A DNA stretch of 64,000 nt from NCBI RefSeq assembly GCF_004010195.1, contig NC_057717.1:104879904-104943903 (forward strand), written 5' to 3'. Below are positions 23,705-59,300 of the stretch, one piece after another. Source of the stretch: Chiloscyllium plagiosum (taxonomy: Eukaryota). Both the position numbers and the translations under genes were made by a program. The notes beneath the pieces are model-generated. The model was not told where the DNA came from. It ran no database searches and saw nothing but the letters and a program-made list of their open reading frames with translations. Every line of letters starts with the position of its first letter. The first letter of the stretch is position 1.

Positions 23705-24090
23705 GGAGACAGGCTGGAGGCTGAAAGAACACAGCAAGCCAGGCATCAGGAGGTGGAGAAGTAGACGTTTTGGGTGTAACCCTTCTTCAGGACTTGGGGT
23801 ATGTGTAGGGGAGCTGCAGATAAAGGGGATGGCGGGGGCAGGGTGGTGAAGTGGGGATAGGTGAAGACGGGTAGAGGGTACTACCTGGTTGGTCAATGGG
23901 AGGTGTGAAGAGAGGAGGCAGAGGTTGGTGGCAGAGAGGAGTGCAAGGGAGGGGGAGGGGGAGGGGCTGGGAAGGGAGTCGGGGATGGGAAGGGAGGTTA
24001 TATGAAAATGGAGAACTCAATGTTGAGTCCTCCGGGCTGTAGGCTGCCCAGGCGGAAGATAAGGTGTTGTTCCTCCAATTTGCAGTTGTC
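23705..24090 (-). mobile_element. PLE (second family) 3' end: GIY-YIG C-terminus, C-rich UTR and hammerhead-bearing pseudo-LTR
   Basis: The minus strand reads KLEEQHLIFRLGSLQPGGLNIEFSIF. The hammerhead-like gtc-CTGAAGA-agggttacaccc-AAAAC-GTC lies at 23793-23761. Confidence 0.8.
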
Positions 24091-24230
24091 CTGCGGATTC
24101 TCTATATTCATCCTTGATGGCCCAGGTTTAATTTTGAATCTGAAACATTACACAGTACTGGAAATGTCAGACAAGTAGAACTTGAACTCATGACTTTCTG
24201 ACTTAGAGGTGAGAGTGCTACCAACACAGT

Positions 24231-24422
24231 TGAAACTTTATTGCTGGAACAGCACAGCAGGTCAGGCAGCATCCAGGGAACAGGAGATTCGACGTTTCGG
24301 GCACAGGCCCTTCTTCCGAAACGTCGAATCTCCTGTTCCCTGGATGCTGCCTGACCTGCTGTGCTGTTCCAGCAATAAAGTTTCAACTTTGATCTCCAGC
24401 ATCTGCAGACCTCACTTTCTCC
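24231..24422. mobile_element. young hairpin PLE-derived insertion with a perfect 72-bp inverted repeat
   Basis: 24229-24300 is the exact reverse complement of 24316-24387. 15-bp TSD tgctaccaacacagt at 24216-24230 and 24423-24437. Confidence 0.9.
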
Positions 24423-24499
24423 TGCTACCAACACAGTAAAGGTTGAAGGAAAAGACATGAATGAGAATAGTGATTGACCATGCTTAACTTATAAAGAAG

Positions 24500-24646
24500 G
24501 AGAAAATGAGGACTGCAGAGATGCTGAAGACCAGAGTTGAAAAATGTGGTGCTGGAAAAACACAGCAGGCCAGGCAGCATCTGGCAGGCCAGGCAGCATC
24601 TGAGGAGCAGGAGAATCGATGTTTCGGGCATAAGCCCTTCTTCAGG
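24500..24646 (-). mobile_element. solo PLE pseudo-LTR with hammerhead motif
   Basis: The minus strand reads ttc-CTGAAGA-a-gggc ttat gccc-GAAAC-ATC-gat. TSD aacttata(a/c)agaag at 24486-24499 and 24647-24660. Confidence 0.8.
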
Positions 24647-27600
24647 AACTTATACAGAAGCCAAGGAAGATGATGAAGGACATTGCATTGTGGTCACAGT
24701 CACAAGAAATATCATTTGTGTTATTGACGAAGCAAGTCCCAGTACTGGGGACAGGATGGAAACCACACTGATGGGATGAAAATAGACAATGATGGGAGAA
24801 TATGAGCAGGTCTATGGCTTGATGACCTGTTATTAGTGCTCTACTAATAGGTAATTTTTTTTTAAAATGGCCATTTGAGATCTTTGCAAATAGCTAAGAC
24901 CAAGAAATCTCTCATGAGAGAAGTCTGGGCCCAAACCTGAAGTTGGCATGACATGTCAGAATATCAGCATTTGGATGGTTAGTTTTTGAATGCTTTGTCT
25001 CTCAAAGGAAAAATTCTGAGTTCAGCATCTTACCAAGCAAAATTAATAAAAATAGCTTTGCTGGCTAGTGTACAGCAATCTCATTTTTTTAACAAGTGAT
25101 ACTGCCGATCTTACGGGAAACACAGATTGATTTACTGGCTACATATCACACATCAAAATCTCTGCAATTCCATAGTATCTCTTAATAAAATTTCCAAGGA
25201 ACAACAGTGCTTCAAACTCCAATGGGATAACAATATTGCTGATCCTGGAATATTTACCAAACTGTTACCATATATAATAGTTTATACTGAGCAATGTAAA
25301 GACATTTCAAGTTACGTACTTACTGATTTGCTCCTGAGAACATTCACATTTGAAAAAGACAATAGCACCATGGAAATTTACAGCACAGAAGATAACCATT
25401 CAACCCAACATGTCCATACCAGCTGAGAAAACACTGGTTCAAAGCCTTGCAAGTGACAGCACTTCAGGTACATTGGAAACAAGCTGTAGGTTTCTGCCTC
25501 CATCATCAAATGGGCAGCAAACCTCAGGCAGCAAGCAGCCTCTGCGTGAAAAAGACTTTCCTCAAACTTTCCCTACAGTCCTTCTATAATCACCTTAAAT
25601 TTGTGCCCCCTGGTGTGTAACCTCTCAGAAAACAGACCTTTCCTGTCTACTCTGTTTAAGCCCCTCATTATTCCTGGAATGGTTGCATTCTGCTATGATG
25701 CAAGATTAAGGTGACTAGGCCTGCACTTTCTTGATTCTACAAAAATGACATGCGATCTCATTGAAATTTACAAAATTCTTAAAGTGCTAGATAAAGGGGA
25801 CACATAAGGCATGTTTCTCCTAACTGTGGAACCCCGAGAACTAGTGGACACAAGCTCAAATGTAACTTAGAGCTGAGAATAAGAAGGAACCTTGCTACTT
25901 AGAGGGTGGTGAGTATAATTTAATGAACACATGTTTTGAAATGCATGATGAAGCAGTGTATTAATACAACGTTTTCTTAAACTTAGGCTCATGATTGAGT
26001 TTACTTCAATATTGCATCAATGGGGAATACCTGAATTTGGAATCTTGAGACTGTTATTCTACGCTTGAGACATTGCCCTCATGACTAAGTGAAAAAGGAA
26101 CTGCAATTATGAGACAGGATATTGTATCTCTTCCAATGAGTCTCAATAATAAATGACTGGAATCAGTCAGAACATTCTGCTGCCTTAGATCCATGGTGAC
26201 AAAAAACCTGTCTCTCAATGAAGTATTCAGTACCACCTGACTCCACATTCAGAAAGCATGAACAGTTAGCCATCTGCCAGTTCCCCAGTCCAGATCATTA
26301 TAACTTCCACATTGGCTGGAGCTACCAATCCATCAATTACCACTATCTCCCAACTAAATTGCCCTAATCTTTCAACCTAATTGTCCTCCTTCACAATTCT
26401 TTTTAAATGTTTACTTAAGCACCATAGGATGACTTTCAAGGAATTCCGAAGCCTCAGTCATACAATGGGAGGAGTCATGGTCACTGTAAAGACATGCAGG
26501 ATGTATCAGTGGCTAGGTTAATTTATAAAATGATTTTAAAAATCAGGGTAGAAAGGGAACCCTTTCCAAGTAGATAGTTGGCGCCATAAGGGCTACTTTC
26601 TCTGCCCATGGCTGCCTCTTTGGACCATCAAGCCTCTGGTTCCAATGGTTGCCCAGGGTTACTTTAGTGTGATAGCCTCCATTTAGCTTGCAGCTACCTC
26701 AACATCAGAAAATGCTGACTGTGCTGTTAAATTGCCCTGAATTGTGTTATTAGTTATGCTATGTTTTTGAAATGGGCAGCCAATCCATATTTAATCCCAC
26801 TGCTGGTAAAACGCCTCAGTTTTGGGACCAGGTTGGAAGAGCCAACTTAACAATTCCTTAAATTTACTGTCACCATTGCCCCTCTGCTTCCTGGAGAGGA
26901 TGTGAAAACCCTGACATGTTTTCCAGAATTTATAACTGAGGGATTCTATCAGTCAATATTTTCAGGGGAATGCCCATGCAAATGCGTTCACATTCAAAGG
27001 TTAAATAATTCCACAGAGGCTGGTATCCCTCAACAAGTCACCTTTTATTTACTCGAGCACTGCCTCTTCTGAGTCAGCTACCAGAGTGGCAGAATCTCTG
27101 ACACTTATTTTTGCCTGTCAGCCAGGGCTGCCTGATTGAACCAGGTTAACAGTCCTAATCAGGGAACTCATATTCTATGATGTCCAGTTGGATCACCTTG
27201 TTACAATTACTACATCCTTCCTGTTCTGAGTCCTTTTTCTTGGAGGGCCTCCTGGGGCTTTTTAGCACTGGGTCATGTTCCTCCAACTCGGCATACAATA
27301 CGGACGGCATGCAACACACAGGAGCTCACCTCTTGTGCCAGGAGTGCCTCAATAAAATTTCATTTCCTTCTTCCAGCTGCAAAGGTCAAGGCAGCTACAC
27401 CTGTCATGCCAATCTCTGATTCAGAGGACTCATCAATGCTTGATGGACAGGATGAACCCAAGGGTTCTGGCAGTCTTTCCAACTGTTCCAAGGAATACAG
27501 CACACTTTGCTCCTGCTCCATTTGCGAATTTGCGGCTTTCATATGCTACAGGTGCTTGTTCAGAACCATCACATCTACATCACTGGTCCTGACCTCGCAT

Positions 27601-53624: not shown

Positions 53625-56257
53625 TACTTTGTTTCTCGGTTTCTTTCTTTTGGTTTGGTTTATGACTTCTGGTATTATGACTTTTGTTATCTTTGTAAGT
53701 ATTTCCCAGATTGGGAATTTAATTTGACTACTTGAATCCAGAGGCCTGGGATCACATGATTGCCACACATGATTGCAACAACAAAACAGTTGCCACTGCC
53801 CTGCTACTCTATGCTCTTTGTTCATGGCAATAGTCCTAAATAACATCTTTCTTGTGACCTTCACACATGTTCCAACATACCTCAACATAGAGCAAACAAA
53901 ATCAAGGATACACCAGCAAATTTCCTAGTTTGATCTCCTGGTTTTCAAAATGCAAGTAGCAGCCAAGTGGGAGCAAGTCAAAAGGTATTTCTGTCAACAT
54001 TGTCTCATCTCAATACAAAATAAGAGTAAATGTAGGATTAGCACTGAAACTCAGTTCTAGCAACATCCTGTAACCAAAGAACTAATAATGAAGGCCAAAG
54101 ACGGAGAAACCAACAGGTACATTAAGGGCCCATGTGTAAAAAGCCAGCCAAATGTAGCAAAATGATTATTTTGTAAATAGCATTTATTTAATTCAGTAAA
54201 AATTGTTAATCACCAAATATGTTGTCATTAATTTCCTAAGATGGTTAACATACAAGTTATTGAAAAACAAAGTTGAGTCAGATTGGCCAAGATAGTGCTG
54301 TGGCGAAAGCCACCTTAGCTTTGTATAATTCAACAAGGTCACAAAGCTTGAACAAATTTCTTCTATTGCAGAAAACCAGTCTAATTATATGAATATATGT
54401 TGCTTTTAGCAAACATAAACAAACCACATTACAAGCTACATATAAAACCATTTTAATATAAAGAGGTATTAGTACATTTGGAATTATTCAGCAGGACCAA
54501 CTGATAACCACATCTGACAGTAGACAGTTTGTTTTAGGTTTTGCAAGCATGATCTGGTAGTGTTTGGTCTATTCTTCTTCCATGGCAGTCCTTCAAGGTC
54601 AAGGATTACTTATTTTCACTCTGAGAGGATAAATTCTAAATGGTTGATTAGTCCAATCCTGGAGTTCCAGACTCTGCCATCAGTGGGGCAGCTGATGTTT
54701 GATGAGTGGGTGGGATGTTCTGCATTCTGTATGCTCTTACACTTCACTTCCACGTGCTCCACTTGGTGATGCTCAAAGTAGTACCTTTGCAGATGTTTCT
54801 TCCCCACTTTGTACATTCAATGGGAAGTGATTCTGATGTGTCAATGGAGATGTAGCATTTGTTTAGGGAGGCTTTCAAGATGCCTTTGTAGCATGCCATC
54901 TAGTGATTGCTTACCCTCGAGGAGCTCAGAGTAGAGCACTTGTTTAGGGAGTCTTGTATCAGACTTGTGGACAATGTGGCCTGCCCATCACAGCTTAATG
55001 TGAGAGACCACAGCCTCGATATAGGGGTTAGGGTGATGGTTAGGGTTAAGCCTGGGAGAGAACACTCAAGTTCTTACACCTATCCTGCATGTGTTTTTCA
55101 GGAGTTTACAAAGGCAGTGTTGTTGATAAGTGTCCAGATATTGGAGGTGTCTGCTGTACATGGTCCATGTCTCTGATGCACACAGGAGGATTGAGTGCAC
55201 AGTTGCTTTATAGACCATGACTTTGGTACTGGGTTTAAATACTCAGGCTTCAAACACCATATTCGTCAGGTGTCTAAAGGTTGCACTGATGCATTGGAGT
55301 TGATGCTGGATTTCATCGTCAATATCTGCTCACACCGAGAAGAGGCTCCCAAAGTATGAGAAATGATCCACATTGTCCAGGGACTTGAAATAGATTTTGA
55401 TGGTCTGGAGGTAGGACTGTGTGGCAGAAGCAGGCTGCTGCTGGACATCTGTCTTTCGGCTGTTTAGACAGTTTGGCTGCACTGGATAATGTGTTGTGGG
55501 ATGCGACTGAGAACACTTGCATTGAACGCTCCTTTAGGTTGAGGAGGTCCTCGAAGTGCTGTCTCGAACAGGCATTAATGAACAACTCTCTGTTTTTGGC
55601 TCTTGCTGGATCGGGTTCCTGGGTACTCAGACTGTAGAGAGGAAACCACACACATTGTGGTTGTTGTTAAGTTGTTAATTTTCCTGCGTGCTTTCCACCC
55701 ACCATCTATTCTCTAGGTCACCCTTGTTTGTTGCATCTTAGACGTCAATTGCCTGGAGACTTGTTTCCTCTTGCTCTAGTTTTGGTGGAGCTACCATTTC
55801 AGGAATGCCTTTCATGTGTGATGTAGGAGATCCTGGATCACCTGATTGTTCTCGTGGAACCAGTCTTAGTGCTTCCTGGTCAAGAGGCCAAGCATCTCTA
55901 TGCAGGTGTTGACTATATTGACTTTTAGGGTGGACCAGGTGCTGTGAGCATTCTGCAGCTCTGGTATGTTGGTCATTGCTGGATTGGTTGTGAGGCACCA
56001 CCTGAATAGGTGTTTCTTCTCAGGGTTTTGACTCCAACACCGAGTATCCTGCAGCAGATCTTTTTTTCTTCCGCTGCCAGTTTAGGGCCAGTTGATGGTA
56101 GATTAGTGGTTGGTCCAGCAGTTGTCAGCTCTGGTCATGGTACTGGTGATGCAGACCATTGCAGTTCCTTGCTTGAATGTTGATGTAGTTTACCAGGTGC
56201 TAATGTCTGGAACAGGGATGTTACCATGAGGTCTTCTGCTTGTCCTTCTGGTGGAAC

Positions 56258-56360
56258 TTCCTGGCTCATTCCTGAAGAAGGGCCTGTGCCCGAAACGTTG
56301 AATCTCCTGTTCCCTGGATGCTGCCTGACCTGCTGTGCTGTTCCAGCATTAAAGTTTCAA
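56258..56360 (+). mobile_element. 103-bp PLE pseudo-LTR insertion
   Basis: 13-bp TSD cttctggtggaac at 56245-56257 and 56361-56373. Nearly identical to the arm at 24316-24387. Confidence 0.88.
56268..56303 (+). ncRNA. minimal type I hammerhead ribozyme motif
   Basis: attc-CTGAAGA-a-[gggc ctgt gccc]-GAAAC-GTT-gaat, with a perfect 4-bp stem I and 4-bp stem II. Confidence 0.82.
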
Positions 56361-59300
56361 CTTCTGGTGGAACAGGATGTTTGTTTGTTATGATGAGGTT
56401 ACATTTTAGGCACTTGGCCAGAACGAGGACTCTGTTGGAGCTTGTTTTCCTTATACAACTTCCTTGCCAAAAATGCCTTTCCAAAGATTTCTGTCCCTTC
56501 CGACTCTTGCATTTAAGGTGCTCAGGAGAATCAACTTGGTCCATCACCATACGGAACAGAGATTGGTTGAAGCTGATATAGAATGCCTCTTTTGTCTCAT
56601 CCGTTACATCTAGGGTCAGGACCAGGCACTGATGACTGTGATGTACTGCTTCTGGGCCGAGGTGAACCTAGGGTAATGAGACATTATCATATGCCACAGG
56701 GAAAGTCATTAAAAGGTCTGACCATTTCATTTCTTACGGTGAAGCCGACTCCATGGAGATGGTGTTCTTCTTCTGGTTTGCTATTCTAGGAGAAGGTATA
56801 ACCATCTCAGTGTTCCTTAAGCTGGTCTTCTCCTGTTAGTCATGTCTAGCTCAGGGCAGCAATGTCGATATTGCAATACTGGAGTTCCTGGGCTATGATG
56901 GCAATGTGATGTTCAGGTCATTGTTGGGTTAGGGCCCATAAAGGTCCTGGTATTTCAGGTTATTTGGGTGGGGTTGATGGAAGCAGGAGGCTAGGGTAGA
57001 AAATCACTGCACATGGATTCTTTGGACATGTCATTATCAACCACTATACAGTCCCAGCAGAGTGAGGTTTTGACCTAATAGCAAAGAAAATCTGGAGACC
57101 TGGCTCTGCTGTAGGACAGGGGTACTAACAAACACTCATGTTCCAACAATTGTTACCATGGTTGAAGAGAAGGTGAAGGCATGGCAATGGTTATGATAGT
57201 TGATAGGCCTGTACGCTTTTCTCCTCCATGAAGCAGGAGTTATCTTGTAAGATAAACATTTCTGGAGAAACTTTTAGCACACCCGTCATATTCACTGAAA
57301 ATGGTTTGTTCTCCATATGCCTGCACAGGTTATTGAGTAGCCACCAGTTCTTGGAAAATGTGATTTTGCAACTGAAAGAGCAAATAAAGAGATTCTGGGA
57401 GAGTTTGTCTCACTCTGATATCAACAGCTGCTCCTCACTTGCCACCTCCTCACTCCCTCAGGTCCCCTCCTCCTCATTCCCTTAGGCTGGTCTTTCCTCC
57501 TCGGTTTCTCAGGCCAAGAGTGAGAGTACCGTTTCATCCTCACACTGTGATGATGGGCGCAATGTCAAATATAGCCTAGTAATAGATGACTGGAACCTCA
57601 TAATAAGAAAAAAATATTTAGCACCTTTTAGACATCGATCCCATCAGCACCCATACATTTTTACATATGATCTGTCTATTACCAATGTAAAACATTGTTT
57701 GATTTGATCAGCCATTTTTTGGGACATACTGCCTAGATACTTAGCAGCAGTAAAATTAATACATTGCATTGTTCAATTGGGTGGTAGACAAAGCAACTGA
57801 CCAGTGTGACGTCTGCTACATAGGCCATCTGCCTCAGCAATTGGCTGATCAAATCAAATCCTTTGATTGTTGATAATGAGGTAGAACACAGACCATACTC
57901 AACCAGCCTGCATCTGTGAAACCCAAAACAAACTCTCCACTGTTGGGTACCATTCCATGTTTGGATAGCACTTGGTGAACTATCTTTAGTGTGTTTGTAA
58001 GTACACTAACACCAAATTTATGAGAGTCAAGTTTGTAAAATGTCTCATTCACACTTGCTTGAAGCAACATACATTCATACACTTACAAATTAAAGGAATA
58101 TGCCTTTTTAGAAGTATTCAAGACCAATAGTCTTTGGAAACCGTAAAGTTCCCTGTTTCTTTTCCCATGGCAACACCAGGGCCAGTCAGAGTAGACATGC
58201 AAATCAATCAGCACTTTTTCTCCTGTAATATAAATTGTTGTGAGACAACAGGGTTGAACTAGTTTCCTTCTTGAGAGCAACTATGATGTTTTCTAGATTC
58301 CACTTGGATGGGAAAAAATCAGTGCCAATAAAAATATTGTAGGCCAACTTCAGAACAAGTTCCTTCAAAAGTTCTTTAAGAAGTCAAGCATTCATGTAAT
58401 CAGGGCTTTGAAGGCAGCCTGGAATTGAAAAAGAATATTCAAGAATCTTTCATTAATCTTGGTTTGACCCAGTCACTGAAGGGATATGAATTTCAAAATC
58501 TAATTCAGCAAAATCTAATTTAGAACTCTTCCACATGCAACATGTGTAGGATGTCACCTTGGCAATTAGGGAGATTGGACCCAGTGTTAGCATGTACTTT
58601 TTGCCCTTTGAGCTAAAGATCGTGCTTTCAAGTCCATTCCATTATTTAAGTACTTATCTTAGGCTGACACAGAAACAGTGTTTTCTTTTTAATGAGACAT
58701 TAAATTTACATCCTAATAAGCATAAATCCACAGCACAAAAATCCCTAGAGTTGGCTGGAATTAACAATTTCACTTACAGAAGGCAAAAGGATAACTGATT
58801 GTGAAATGGAAAAGTTAACAGTGATGCTGTGGGGTACATTTTTCTGAGGTTTGAACTAAGATTGAGCATTATGCCTGAGAAAAGGGAGCTTTGATATAAA
58901 TAAAGCCTTTGCTATATAGCACTGATGCTGACAGTGGATGCACAGATTTACTGAAGCACTTTATTTCTCCTGAAATTGACATTGCTTACATCAGTGAATC
59001 CAAAAATTGCTTAAATTCAGAAAATACTCAAAATCCTGAGTCCTTAATTTCAGTTGAGCGCTGTAATCCATTATTGTTGCTCTCTTGCGTTCCCATTATT
59101 GTCAATGTTCTTAGAAAAATATGTTCATGCGTAATGACACAGTTTTTTCTAAATATATTGCAACATTAAAGAACATAAACTACTCCAAGGCAAAAATAGT
59201 GAATTGTTCTAATATTTTGCAAACTTCTGCCTGGAGCACAAGAACTCTTAACAGCCTCTCAGTCTTTTGCCCTGTATTCAGTTAACCCTTACTCTAAATG

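What the first reader, a model, noticed from the sequence alone, without database searches (positions are those of the whole stretch)
56258..56360. A 103-bp TSD-flanked insertion that is essentially a hammerhead ribozyme plus a short tail
Seen: a 13-bp TSD brackets 103 bp containing attc-CTGAAGA-A-gggc(ctgt)gccc-GAAAC-GTT-gaat. This is a complete hammerhead core with stems I and II and a palindromic 2-bp stem III (AC/GT). Known: Penelope-like pseudo-LTRs carry minimal type I hammerheads that are thought to cleave as dimers. Inference: this is a non-autonomous ribozyme-bearing mini-retroelement, or a minimal PLE integration product, mobilised by PLE RT and GIY-YIG.
Basis: partly seen in the sequence, partly recalled or inferred. 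Interest (0 to 1): 0.72.

Follow-up and report, generated by a model that had tools for sequence, protein, structure and literature searches.

The report
Stub copy of a Penelope-like retrotransposon
The 103-bp insert is a real but ordinary stub copy of a very abundant Penelope-like retrotransposon, and it carries that family's known minimal hammerhead ribozyme motif.

Summary
An exact 13-bp direct repeat (56245-56257 and 56361-56373) brackets 103 bp that contain a complete minimal type-I hammerhead motif.

The insert is not a separate element. It is the terminal piece of a young, very abundant Penelope-like element (PLE) family in this 3.56-Gb genome:
- The family's 3'-terminal 44-mer occurs 17,406 times as an exact match.
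- Longer copies run upstream into a GIY-YIG endonuclease reading frame. Its relatives elsewhere carry a reverse transcriptase followed by GIY-YIG.

The copies show the published PLE hallmarks:
- two alternative 3' ends 36 nt apart (the "tail");
- frequent head-to-head twin copies;
- short target-site duplications (TSDs);
- a hammerhead with an unpaired base after A9 and no helix III loop.

Between subfamilies the hammerhead varies where a real one may (N7, loop II), and helices I and II show some compensatory changes.

Most copies are stubs like this one. About three quarters of the 5' ends fall within about 20 nt at the ribozyme's 5' edge, and almost none fall at the ribozyme cut site. My inference is that the reverse transcriptase starts internally and runs off the 5' end of the element's own RNA. 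Head-to-tail arrays are nearly absent, so this is not a retrozyme.

Verdict: a new member of a known kind, of low interest.

The parts
56245..56257 (.). Left copy of the 13-bp target-site duplication, CTTCTGGTGGAAC.
   Evidence: It is identical to 56361-56373. X15 contigs cross both junctions (table 8).
56258..56263 (+). 6-nt filler TTCCTG at the 5' junction. It is not homologous to the parent element and is an exact repeat of 56269-56274.
   Evidence: most genome hits match only from query position 7. The same filler sits in front of an independent copy (L002/L031).
56264..56360 (+). 97-nt segment homologous to the terminal part of the PLE family. It holds the hammerhead, a conserved block and 3'-end zone 1, and has no tail.
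   Evidence: 97-99% identity to many copies; 99% to the long copy L011 over 100 nt. Its 5' end lies at -8 relative to C3, inside the main 5'-end zone.
56268..56271 (+). Helix I, 5' strand (ATTC). It overlaps the Inr-like TCATTCC.
   Evidence: It pairs with 56300-56303. Helix I is paired in 71.2% of cells, and 2 of its 4 pairs change on both sides.
56272..56278 (+). Hammerhead core box CUGANGA (CTGAAGA, N7 = A).
   Evidence: N7 is A in 16 copies, T in 12, G in 4 and C in 1 of 33 aligned copies, while the flanking core positions are 90% or more conserved.
56279..56279 (+). Unpaired A between A9 and G10.1.
   Evidence: A in 32 of 33 copies. It is listed as a hallmark of PLE minimal hammerheads in PMC4209133.
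56280..56291 (+). Helix II hairpin, GGGC-CTGT-GCCC.
   Evidence: Paired in 97.7% of cells. The loop varies. C-G becomes U-A in 2 copies.
56292..56299 (+). GAAA box, the palindrome ACGT (A15.1 C15.2 G16.2 U16.1) and H17 = T. The predicted cut is after 56299.
   Evidence: C at H17 (GTC) is the majority form: 95 of the first 100 places listed and 166 of 177 RNA reads. T at H17 (GTT) is a minority subfamily variant.
56300..56303 (+). Helix I, 3' strand (GAAT).
56316..56348 (+). The block best conserved between subfamilies (GGATGCTGCC...TTCCAGCA). It is a candidate RNA element for binding or positioning of the reverse transcriptase.
   Evidence: most columns are 90% or more conserved across 33 copies of 71-91% identity. 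The role is inferred by analogy with PAc (PMC11167929).
56349..56349 (+). Private substitution. T here turns the family's AATAAA into ATTAAA.
   Evidence: table 3: A in 144 of 145 RNA reads and in nearly all contig depth. One search agrees.
56358..56363 (+). 3'-end zone 1 (...TTTCAA followed by 0-3 of CTT), read here as the first of two internal reverse-transcription start zones.
   Evidence: 33 of 68 copies end here and 35 of 68 carry the extra 36-nt tail.
56361..56373 (.). Right copy of the 13-bp target-site duplication.

Best explanation
The insert is a dead-on-arrival stub copy of an active or recently active Penelope-like element (PLE).

Shown:
- It is the terminal roughly 97 nt of that family.
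- It was inserted with a 13-bp target-site duplication.
- It ends at the first of the family's two 3'-end zones.
- It carries the family's minimal type-I hammerhead motif.

Inferred from the published PLE mechanism: the element's GIY-YIG endonuclease nicked the target, and the reverse transcriptase started copying at an internal site of the element's RNA (zone 1, ...TTTCAA).

My own inference, about even odds: copying then ran only about 95 nt, to the 5' end of an RNA that starts at an Inr-like TCATTCC overlapping helix I, 31 nt downstream of a conserved TTTATC box. That would explain why most copies of the family are stubs of this size. In this copy, a 6-nt slip or template switch then added TTCCTG before joining.

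The hammerhead is a passenger here. A single copy with no helix III loop should not cut itself, and in this family ribozyme cutting has left almost no trace in the ends of the copies.
For: Family membership and abundance:
- The 103-mer hits 46 scored places at 97-100% identity out of 721 first-look candidates.
- Exact-match counts on both strands are 17,406 for the 3' 44-mer, 15,281 for the helix II to helix I 28-mer, 4,735 for the 35-mer starting at GCTCATTCC and 4,345 for the 41-mer reaching 6 nt further upstream.

Parent is a PLE:
- Long copies continue upstream into ...IIYCIRCSRCGLFYIGETGRLLAERFREH....
- Pfam GIY-YIG gives E = 1.4e-4, 22.5 bits against a cut-off of 22.6.
- Homologues P0003 and P0010 (E about 1e-30) carry RVT_1 followed by GIY-YIG.

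PLE hallmarks:
- The two 3'-end zones lie 36 nt apart, 33 versus 35 of 68 copies. This matches the "tail" between two internal reverse-transcription start sites shown in vitro for an Anolis PLE (PMC11167929, main text read).
- 14 of 30 unselected copies are arms of head-to-head pairs, and one such pair lies in the window.
- TSD-like repeats of 7-16 bp, median 11, were found in 15 of 84 copies, against 0.72 expected.

Hammerhead:
- All four non-descriptor hallmarks listed in PMC4209133 are present.
- 84.4% of helix cells pair, against at most 56.1% when the partners are slid. 4 of 8 pairs change on both sides. The covariation score is 0.164, and 1 of 500 shuffles reaches it.

5'-end zone:
- 34 of 46 unselected copies start between -11 and +9 of C3. 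7 start further upstream and 5 start further in.
- Genome-wide, counts fall from 15,281 to 4,735 across the same 17 nt.
- TTTATC lies 31-33 nt upstream of the A of CATTCC in 7 of 7 long copies from three subfamilies, while the sequence between them has diverged.

Youth: the insert differs from the long copy L011 at one private base.
Against: - No Rfam hammerhead family matches, even at E up to 10. The motif is recognised only through the published relaxed definition.
- Self-cleavage is untested, and the insert has the less usual U at H17.
- Pfam GIY-YIG falls 0.1 bit short of its cut-off on this family's own protein.
- I could not read the family's own reverse-transcriptase region, because much of the sequence upstream of the copies is withheld. 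The RT + GIY-YIG architecture therefore rests on homologues.
- For the RNA-5'-end step there is no direct evidence. The laid RNA run showed no place where many molecules begin (table 6), although a single-cell polyA library is a poor test of that. 51 reads cross 56264 from the long-copy upstream sequence.
- The 5' ends are ragged over about 20 nt and show no consistent extra G from a cap.
- The TATA and Inr consensus motifs I compare with are recalled, not taken from a call.
- The exact-match counts use words of different lengths, so part of the fall between them reflects mutation rather than ends.
- No empty-site allele was seen.
Confidence: 0.85

Rival explanations
1. The stubs form a distinct non-autonomous family, SINE-like or retrozyme-like. 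On this view they are transcribed from their own copies and copied in trans by PLE proteins, and the window's insert is a full-length member.
For: - The ends are discrete. About three quarters of unselected copies start within a zone of about 20 nt, and all copies end in one of two zones.
- Stubs outnumber longer copies by roughly 3 to 1.
- A 2026 preprint argues that animal retrozymes derive from PLE pLTRs (abstract and passages read).
Against: - No stub-specific diagnostic base was seen. The insert's GTT variant is shared with at least 20 long copies among the 40 printed.
- The stubs begin downstream of the conserved TTTATC box, so they do not carry it along.
- Head-to-tail junctions number 0, 3 and 5 genome-wide, against more than 15,000 copies. 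The tandem arrays that define retrozymes are therefore missing.
- A stub embedded in a host transcript would give copies that carry host flank at the 5' end, not copies that stop in the zone.
Confidence: 0.08
2. This is the same PLE stub, but its 5' end is set by the enzyme and not by the RNA. On this view the reverse transcriptase stalls, falls off or switches template just after copying through the folded hammerhead or a protein bound there, on a long multi-unit RNA.
For: - The zone sits exactly at the 5' edge of the ribozyme and is ragged.
- Many junctions there are template-switch-like: inverted arms (14 of 30) and the 6-nt repeat filler in this copy and in L002.
- The PLE protein assists ribozyme folding in vitro (PMC11167929).
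- RNA reads do cross the zone from upstream (51 reads).
Against: - A structural block should stop the enzyme before it unwinds helices I and II, on their 3' side. Only 5 of 46 copies start inside the motif or downstream of it.
- The conserved TTTATC box at -31 to -33 and the TCA(T/G)T motif retained in subfamilies whose helix I has changed fit a core promoter.
- Passages of PMC8557442 report that the pLTR harbours the transcription start in Penelope and in a Chlamys element.
Confidence: 0.3
3. The template was an RNA already cut by the hammerhead, so the ribozyme defines the copy's end.
For: Self-processing of precursor RNA is the role proposed for PLE hammerheads in PMC4209133.
Against: - A cut RNA would begin at +28 (GAATCTCC). 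This insert begins at -8.
- Only 3 of 46 unselected copies start between +24 and +29.
- Only about 12% fewer copies carry the helix II to helix I word than carry the 3' word.
- In vitro, catalytic mutants did not change insertion for the Anolis PLE, and no RNA-seq reads ended at the cut site.
Confidence: 0.01

Closest known systems
Minimal hammerhead ribozymes (min-HHRs) in the pseudo-LTRs of metazoan Penelope-like elements (Cervera and De la Pena 2014, PMC4209133)
   Same: - Type-I topology with the CUGANGA and GAAA boxes.
- A short helix I of 4 bp.
- An unpaired base between A9 and G10.1, and a G10.1-C11.1 pair.
- A palindromic 15.2-16.2 with no helix III loop, so activity is expected only as a dimer.
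- Thousands of single motifs per genome, read as truncated PLEs.
- Pairs of motifs on opposite strands about 100 bp or more apart.
   Different: - Helix II is 4 bp here, against 7-8 bp in Schistosoma and 6 bp in D. virilis.
- The young family here is very uniform, which the paper reports only for D. virilis.
- H17 is U in this copy.
- Cleavage was not tested here.
Poseidon PLE of Anolis carolinensis (PAc), characterised in vitro (Frangieh et al. 2024, PMC11167929)
   Same: - Two adjacent internal start zones for reverse transcription, which explain an optional 30-40-bp tail. Here the two zones lie 36 nt apart and are used about equally.
- Both target strands can be primed, which fits the head-to-head twins.
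- Ribozyme cutting is not reflected in the products.
   Different: - Only genomic copies were studied here, with no biochemistry.
- The position of the start zones relative to the ORF start is not established for this family.
- The target sites sampled here are not obviously AT-rich, but I did not analyse this.
- The pile-up of 5' ends at the ribozyme's 5' edge is not mentioned in the parts I read.
Non-LTR retrozymes of animals (tandem hammerhead repeats; Li, Clavereau and Pollet 2026 preprint, abstract and passages read)
   Same: They carry a hammerhead, are related to the PLE pLTR, are non-coding and are short.
   Different: Retrozymes are defined by tandem arrays, with solo units as their offspring. 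Here head-to-tail junctions number 8 in all, against more than 15,000 copies, and the stubs are identical to the end of a coding PLE.
5'-truncated, dead-on-arrival copies of LINEs
   Same: They are made by target-primed reverse transcription, are flanked by short TSDs, and most copies are non-functional stubs of the 3' end. This comparison is from recalled general knowledge.
   Different: - There is no poly(A) or 3'-terminal start here.
- There are two discrete internal start zones.
- The 5' ends cluster in one narrow zone and do not decay smoothly.
- Inverted twins are common.

Membership tests
Minimal hammerhead of metazoan PLEs | Conserved core boxes CUGANGA and GAAA with a free N7. | tested here: met
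   N7 is A 16, T 12, G 4, C 1 of 33 copies. Neighbouring core columns are 90% or more conserved.
Minimal hammerhead of metazoan PLEs | [quoted passage not shown] | tested here: met
   A at 56279, and A in 32 of 33 aligned copies. The feature is listed in PMC4209133.
Minimal hammerhead of metazoan PLEs | A G10.1-C11.1 pair closing helix II, with helix II base-paired. | tested here: met
   G-C in 30 of 33 copies, G-U in 2 and A-U in 1. The helix is paired in 97.7% of cells.
Minimal hammerhead of metazoan PLEs | A palindromic 15.2-16.2 with no helix III loop (dimer architecture). | tested here: met
   ACGT at 56295-56298. Columns 35-38 (C15.2, G16.2, U16.1, H17) read CGTC or CGTT in 16 of 33 copies. 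Most of the rest are CpG-decay forms: CATC 5, TGTC 4, TATC 2, CATT 2 and TGTT 1.
Minimal hammerhead of metazoan PLEs | Helix I of 4-5 bp, supported by compensatory change. | tested here: met
   ATTC/GAAT. 2 of 4 pairs change on both sides. One distant subfamily has AGTT/AACT. The weak point is that the U-A pair at columns 6/41 is unpaired in 25 of 33 older copies.
Minimal hammerhead of metazoan PLEs | Self-cleavage after H17, as a dimer or with protein help. | not testable with these tools
   The MFE dimer fold was uninformative. RNA reads showed no pile of ends at 56299, which is weak evidence only.
Rfam hammerhead families (type I, II, III, HH9, HH10) | Score at or above the family's gathering threshold. 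| tested here: not met
   No match at gathering thresholds over the whole window. No hammerhead match at E up to 10 on 56100-56520. This is expected, because the motif has no helix III hairpin.
Penelope-like element (EN+ PLE) insertion | The parent encodes a reverse transcriptase with a C-terminal GIY-YIG endonuclease. | tested here: inconclusive
   A GIY-YIG motif with the preceding Cys-rich linker is visible in L026. Pfam gives 22.5 bits against a 22.6 cut-off. Homologues with RVT_1 plus GIY-YIG match at E about 1e-30. The family's own RT region was not readable.
Penelope-like element (EN+ PLE) insertion | An optional 30-40-bp tail at one end of insertions. | tested here: met
   A 36-nt extension is present in 35 of 68 copies, with ragged ends over about 12 nt. 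The feature is described in PMC8557442 passages and in PMC11167929.
Penelope-like element (EN+ PLE) insertion | Heavy 5' truncation, with inverted 5'-truncated partner copies. | tested here: met
   39 of 46 unselected copies are shorter than about 150 bp. 14 of 30 are arms of head-to-head pairs. An example lies in the window at 24216-24436.
Non-LTR retrozyme | Head-to-tail tandem arrays of the hammerhead-bearing unit. | tested here: not met
   0, 3 and 5 junctions genome-wide for three junction patterns.

The most novel reading that the evidence does not exclude
In this PLE family the usual product of retrotransposition is a "leader-only" retrocopy, not a randomly truncated element. The element's RNA would start at an Inr-like TCATTCC that doubles as the 5' strand of hammerhead helix I. 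The reverse transcriptase would start internally about 90 or about 126 nt downstream and run off the RNA's 5' end. That would yield more than 10,000 near-identical stubs of 90-135 bp, single or as twins primed from both target strands. If so, the genome records in vivo both the transcription start and the two internal initiation sites of a PLE, and it shows that hammerhead cutting is not part of the productive pathway.
Probability: 0.45. Interest if true: 0.45.

Novelty: new member of a known kind. Interest (0 to 1): 0.2.

Why it matters
For annotation, this insert and thousands like it should be masked as PLE fragments. They should not be listed as ribozyme genes or as a new mobile element.

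For PLE biology, the family is a large and very young natural data set:
- It independently shows the two-start-site "tail" signature that has so far been demonstrated in vitro for one lizard element.
- It shows that copy ends ignore the ribozyme cut site.
- It points to a testable position for the element's transcription start.

None of this changes what is known about hammerheads or PLEs in kind.

Tried and rejected
- **Cap-derived G (rejected).** I first read the TGGCTCATTCC 5' end, shared by the best hits, as a discrete end with a cap-derived extra G. That was a selection artefact. Only 28 of 4,735 copies have it, the base before it is random, and the unselected sample shows a broader zone with no consistent G.
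- **Retrozyme-like tandem arrays (rejected).** Junction counts were 0, 3 and 5.
- **Pfam on a short fragment.** A 72-aa C-terminal fragment gave nothing. A longer visible stretch gave the borderline GIY-YIG hit.
- **RNA evidence.** No RNA holder was listed by the run search. I laid two raw RNA runs and two contig runs. X20 gave 477 reads, all on the insert, in both directions and mostly from other copies. X21 gave 0 reads. No place where many molecules begin or end was reported, and no empty-site joint. The library is single-cell polyA, so this does not test the transcription start.
- **Dimer fold.** The MFE dimer fold swaps helix II between molecules and says nothing about helix III.
- **Earlier findings of this scan.** Nothing was on record near this place.
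- **ORF start.** An ATG at 56318-56320 opens a frame through the tail, but in one longer copy that frame stops soon after (sequence). I make no claim about where the ORF starts.

Full report
**1. The observation**

One search shows the exact 13-mer CTTCTGGTGGAAC at 56245-56257 and again at 56361-56373, with 103 bp between the two copies. The 103 bp contain the following, in order:
- ATTC, 56268-56271
- CTGAAGA, 56272-56278
- an extra A, 56279
- the hairpin GGGC-CTGT-GCCC, 56280-56291
- GAAA, 56292-56295
- C-G-T, 56296-56298
- T, 56299
- GAAT, 56300-56303

This is a type-I hammerhead layout with 4-bp helices I and II. In place of helix III there is only the palindrome ACGT. The MFE fold of the 49-nt monomer gives helices I and II as drawn. 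The 32-nt core has 2 matches in the window at up to 3 mismatches, against none in 100 shuffles. No Rfam family reaches its threshold anywhere in the window, and no hammerhead model matches at E up to 10 around the site.

**2. What it belongs to**

The window lies in a 3.56-Gb assembly. The 103-mer finds 46 scored places at 97-100% identity among 721 first-look candidates.

Genome-wide exact-match counts, both strands:

| Word | Count |
|---|---|
| 3'-terminal 44-mer | 17,406 |
| 28-mer from helix II to the 3' strand of helix I | 15,281 |
| 35-mer starting at GCTCATTCC | 4,735 |
| 41-mer reaching 6 nt further upstream | 4,345 |

Most hits match the insert only from its 7th base. In those copies the sequence continues upstream as a shared longer element. 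The first 6 nt of the insert (TTCCTG) are therefore junction filler. They repeat 56269-56274 exactly, and the same filler precedes an independent copy, L002/L031.

Upstream, long copies run through a pyrimidine-rich untranslated stretch into an open frame ending ...RFREHLWATRTNQP...EEERLIFRLG. In L026 the frame is visible further back and reads ...IIYCIRCSRCGLFYIGETGRLLAERFREH.... Three results bear on what this frame is:
- Pfam GIY-YIG matches it at E = 1.4e-4, with 22.5 bits against a cut-off of 22.6.
- A search of longer proteins with this 147-aa stretch gave 17 proteins at E up to 1e-5. The two best (71-75% identity) are named by their source as uncharacterised proteins of a bamboo shark.
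- Two homologues, P0003 (894 aa) and P0010 (688 aa), carry RVT_1 followed by a C-terminal GIY-YIG. That is the architecture of endonuclease-bearing Penelope-like elements.

Much of the sequence further upstream of the copies is withheld in the loci. I did not see the family's own reverse-transcriptase region.

**3. Anatomy of the copies**

*3' ends.* Of 68 copies carrying the terminal word in my loci, 33 end at ...TTTCAA plus 0-3 of CTT. The other 35 continue for a further 36 nt to ...CACTTTCTCC plus 0-8 of TCGAAGAT. The insert under study uses the first zone.

*5' ends.* I assembled a set not selected on the 5' part. It consists of the 30 first places on contig 1 found with the 3' word, plus bystander copies in the flanks of other loci and in the window. 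That gave 46 distinct copies. The 44 copies that had been selected through their 5' part were dropped.

| 5' end relative to C3 of CUGAAGA | Copies (of 46) |
|---|---|
| Between -11 and +9 | 34 |
| Further upstream | 7 |
| Inside the motif or beyond | 5 |

The insert starts at -8, inside the main zone. The genome-wide counts tell the same story: 15,281 falls to 4,735 across those 17 nt, but only 4,735 to 4,345 across the next 6 nt. The words differ in length, so part of the fall is mutational.

*Partners.* 14 of the 30 unselected copies are arms of head-to-head pairs with their 3' ends pointing outward. The window has one such pair at 24230-24422, with one arm tailed and one not, flanked by a 14-bp duplication.

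*Target-site duplications.* A simple search for the longest shared word next to both ends found repeats of 7-16 bp (median 11) in 15 of 84 copies. Shuffled pairings gave a mean of 0.72 and a maximum of 3. Nine of the 15 come from the set I had selected through a 5' pattern. The lengths can include up to about 3 nt of element end.

*Tandems.* Head-to-tail junctions between stubs were 0, 3 and 5 genome-wide for three junction patterns.

**4. The hammerhead**

I aligned the insert with 32 other copies of 71-91% identity, taken from several subfamilies present in my loci and the window.
- N7 of CUGANGA is A in 16 copies, T in 12, G in 4 and C in 1. Its neighbours are 90% or more conserved.
- The extra base after A9 is A in 32 of 33 copies.
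- Loop II varies.

For the two helices I named, one search gives:
- 84.4% of cells form standard pairs, against at most 56.1% when partners are slid by 1-3 columns.
- Helix II is paired in 97.7% of cells and helix I in 71.2%.
- 4 of 8 pairs show changes on both sides.
- The covariation score is 0.164 against a shuffled mean of 0.129, and 1 of 500 shuffles reaches it.

One distant subfamily replaces ATTC/GAAT with AGTT/AACT and GGGC/GCCC with GGGT/ACCT. Many departures are CpG-decay forms (CG to CA or TG), as expected for dead copies in a vertebrate genome.

These features are exactly the ones Cervera and De la Pena list as emerging hallmarks of PLE minimal hammerheads: consensus families with covariation, a nucleotide between 9 and 10.1, G10.1-C11.1, and a palindromic 15.2-16.2 (PMC4209133; parts 1-2 of 4 read). 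That paper also reports single motifs scattered in thousands per genome, interpreted as truncated PLEs, and pairs of motifs on opposite strands.

The core is not the best-conserved part. The 33-nt block downstream (56316-56348) is at least as conserved between subfamilies.

**5. How it most likely arose**

The main text of Frangieh et al. 2024 (PMC11167929) reports the following for an Anolis PLE in vitro:
- Reverse transcription starts at two adjacent internal sites of the RNA.
- The optional 30-40-bp "tail" of genomic copies is the stretch between those sites.
- Both target strands are cut and extended.
- Hammerhead mutants do not change insertion.
- The hammerhead needs the protein in order to cut.

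Passages of Craig et al. 2021 (PMC8557442) describe heavy 5' truncation, adjacent inverted truncated copies and the tail as general PLE features. They also say that the pLTR harbours the transcription start in Penelope and in a Chlamys element.

The family here shows all of this in its genomic copies. I therefore read the insert as one target-primed reverse-transcription event that started at zone 1.

For the narrow 5' zone I propose that the RNA template itself begins there:
- TCATTCC resembles an initiator element.
- A TTTATC box lies 31-33 nt upstream of its A in 7 of 7 long copies from three subfamilies whose intervening sequence has diverged.
- The subfamily with a changed helix I keeps TCAGTT.

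The promoter consensus motifs are recalled, not taken from a call, and no RNA 5'-end data support this step. The rival is an enzyme stop or template switch just past the ribozyme. It is weakened by the fact that the stops lie on the far side of the structure, but it is not excluded.

Templates already cut by the ribozyme are rare at best: 3 of 46 copies start between +24 and +29, where a cut RNA would begin at +28.

**6. RNA and population data**

The run search listed no holder on record as RNA. I laid four runs on 55900-56700:
- In about 2% of one single-cell polyA RNA run (X20), 477 reads fell on the insert and none on its flanks. They lie in both directions, and nearly all run on into other sequence, so they come from other copies.
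- A second run of the same sample (X21) gave no reads.
- 166 of 177 reads have C at 56299, and 144 of 145 have A at 56349. The insert therefore belongs to a minority GTT subfamily and carries one private change.
- GTT occurs in 5 of the first 100 places listed, and in at least 20 long copies among the 40 printed.
- Contigs of one run of the same organism label (X15) cross both junctions.
- No contig or read showed the empty site.
- No pile of molecule starts or ends was reported.

**7. Verdict**

It is a stub copy of a known kind of retrotransposon carrying that kind's known ribozyme motif. It is not an independent ribozyme-bearing element.

What goes slightly beyond the literature I read is quantitative:
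- the size and uniformity of the family;
- the even use of the two 3' zones;
- the pile-up of 5' ends at the ribozyme's 5' edge;
- the near absence of ends at the cut site.

Noticed in passing
window 24216-24436: A head-to-head twin insertion of the same family. The left arm lies on the minus strand (24230-24315) and has no tail. The right arm lies on the plus strand (24316-24422), has the 36-nt tail and starts inside helix II. The pair is flanked by the 14-bp duplication TGCTACCAACACAG (24216-24229 and 24423-24436).
   Followed up: partly
window 24498-24648 (minus strand) and 24004-24076 (minus strand): An older-subfamily stub with a tail (73.5% identity to the young family, 5' end again at the helix I edge). 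Close by is a 73%-identical match to the endonuclease-coding part of the long copy.
   Followed up: no
window 56258-56263; L002/L031: The 6-nt junction filler TTCCTG repeats the element's own bases 56269-56274. The identical filler precedes an independent copy with unrelated flanks. This suggests a recurrent slip or template switch at the end of copying.
   Followed up: partly
L056 (contig C44300): One copy is flanked by a direct repeat of about 60 bp of flank and has a different 3' end (...CAGCTGTAAAATACTCA). It is either a very long duplication or an insertion into a tandem repeat.
   Followed up: no
L005, L007, L044 flanks: A second abundant repeat recurs next to several copies. It contains ...GGATATCTGGTCGGCATGGA..GTTGGACCGAAGGGTCTGTTTCCATGCTGTACA.... 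Its identity was not examined.
   Followed up: no
window 55955-56624: Contigs of two runs join 55955 to 56624 (skipping 668 nt) and 56452 to 56625 (skipping 172 nt), at low depth and with short sides (table 5). The flanks of the insert may themselves be part of a repeat with shorter relatives elsewhere.
   Followed up: no
L011:1440-2017 (long copy): Public runs under four other coded organism labels hold 0.17-0.57 of the sampled words of the long copy.
   Followed up: no
window 56362 (table 7): 30 RNA reads run on after 56362 into GGG followed by an A run (agreement 0.61). This lies a few bases downstream of the family's AATAAA. It may mean that some transcripts are polyadenylated at 3'-end zone 1, but the reads are heterogeneous.
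   Followed up: no
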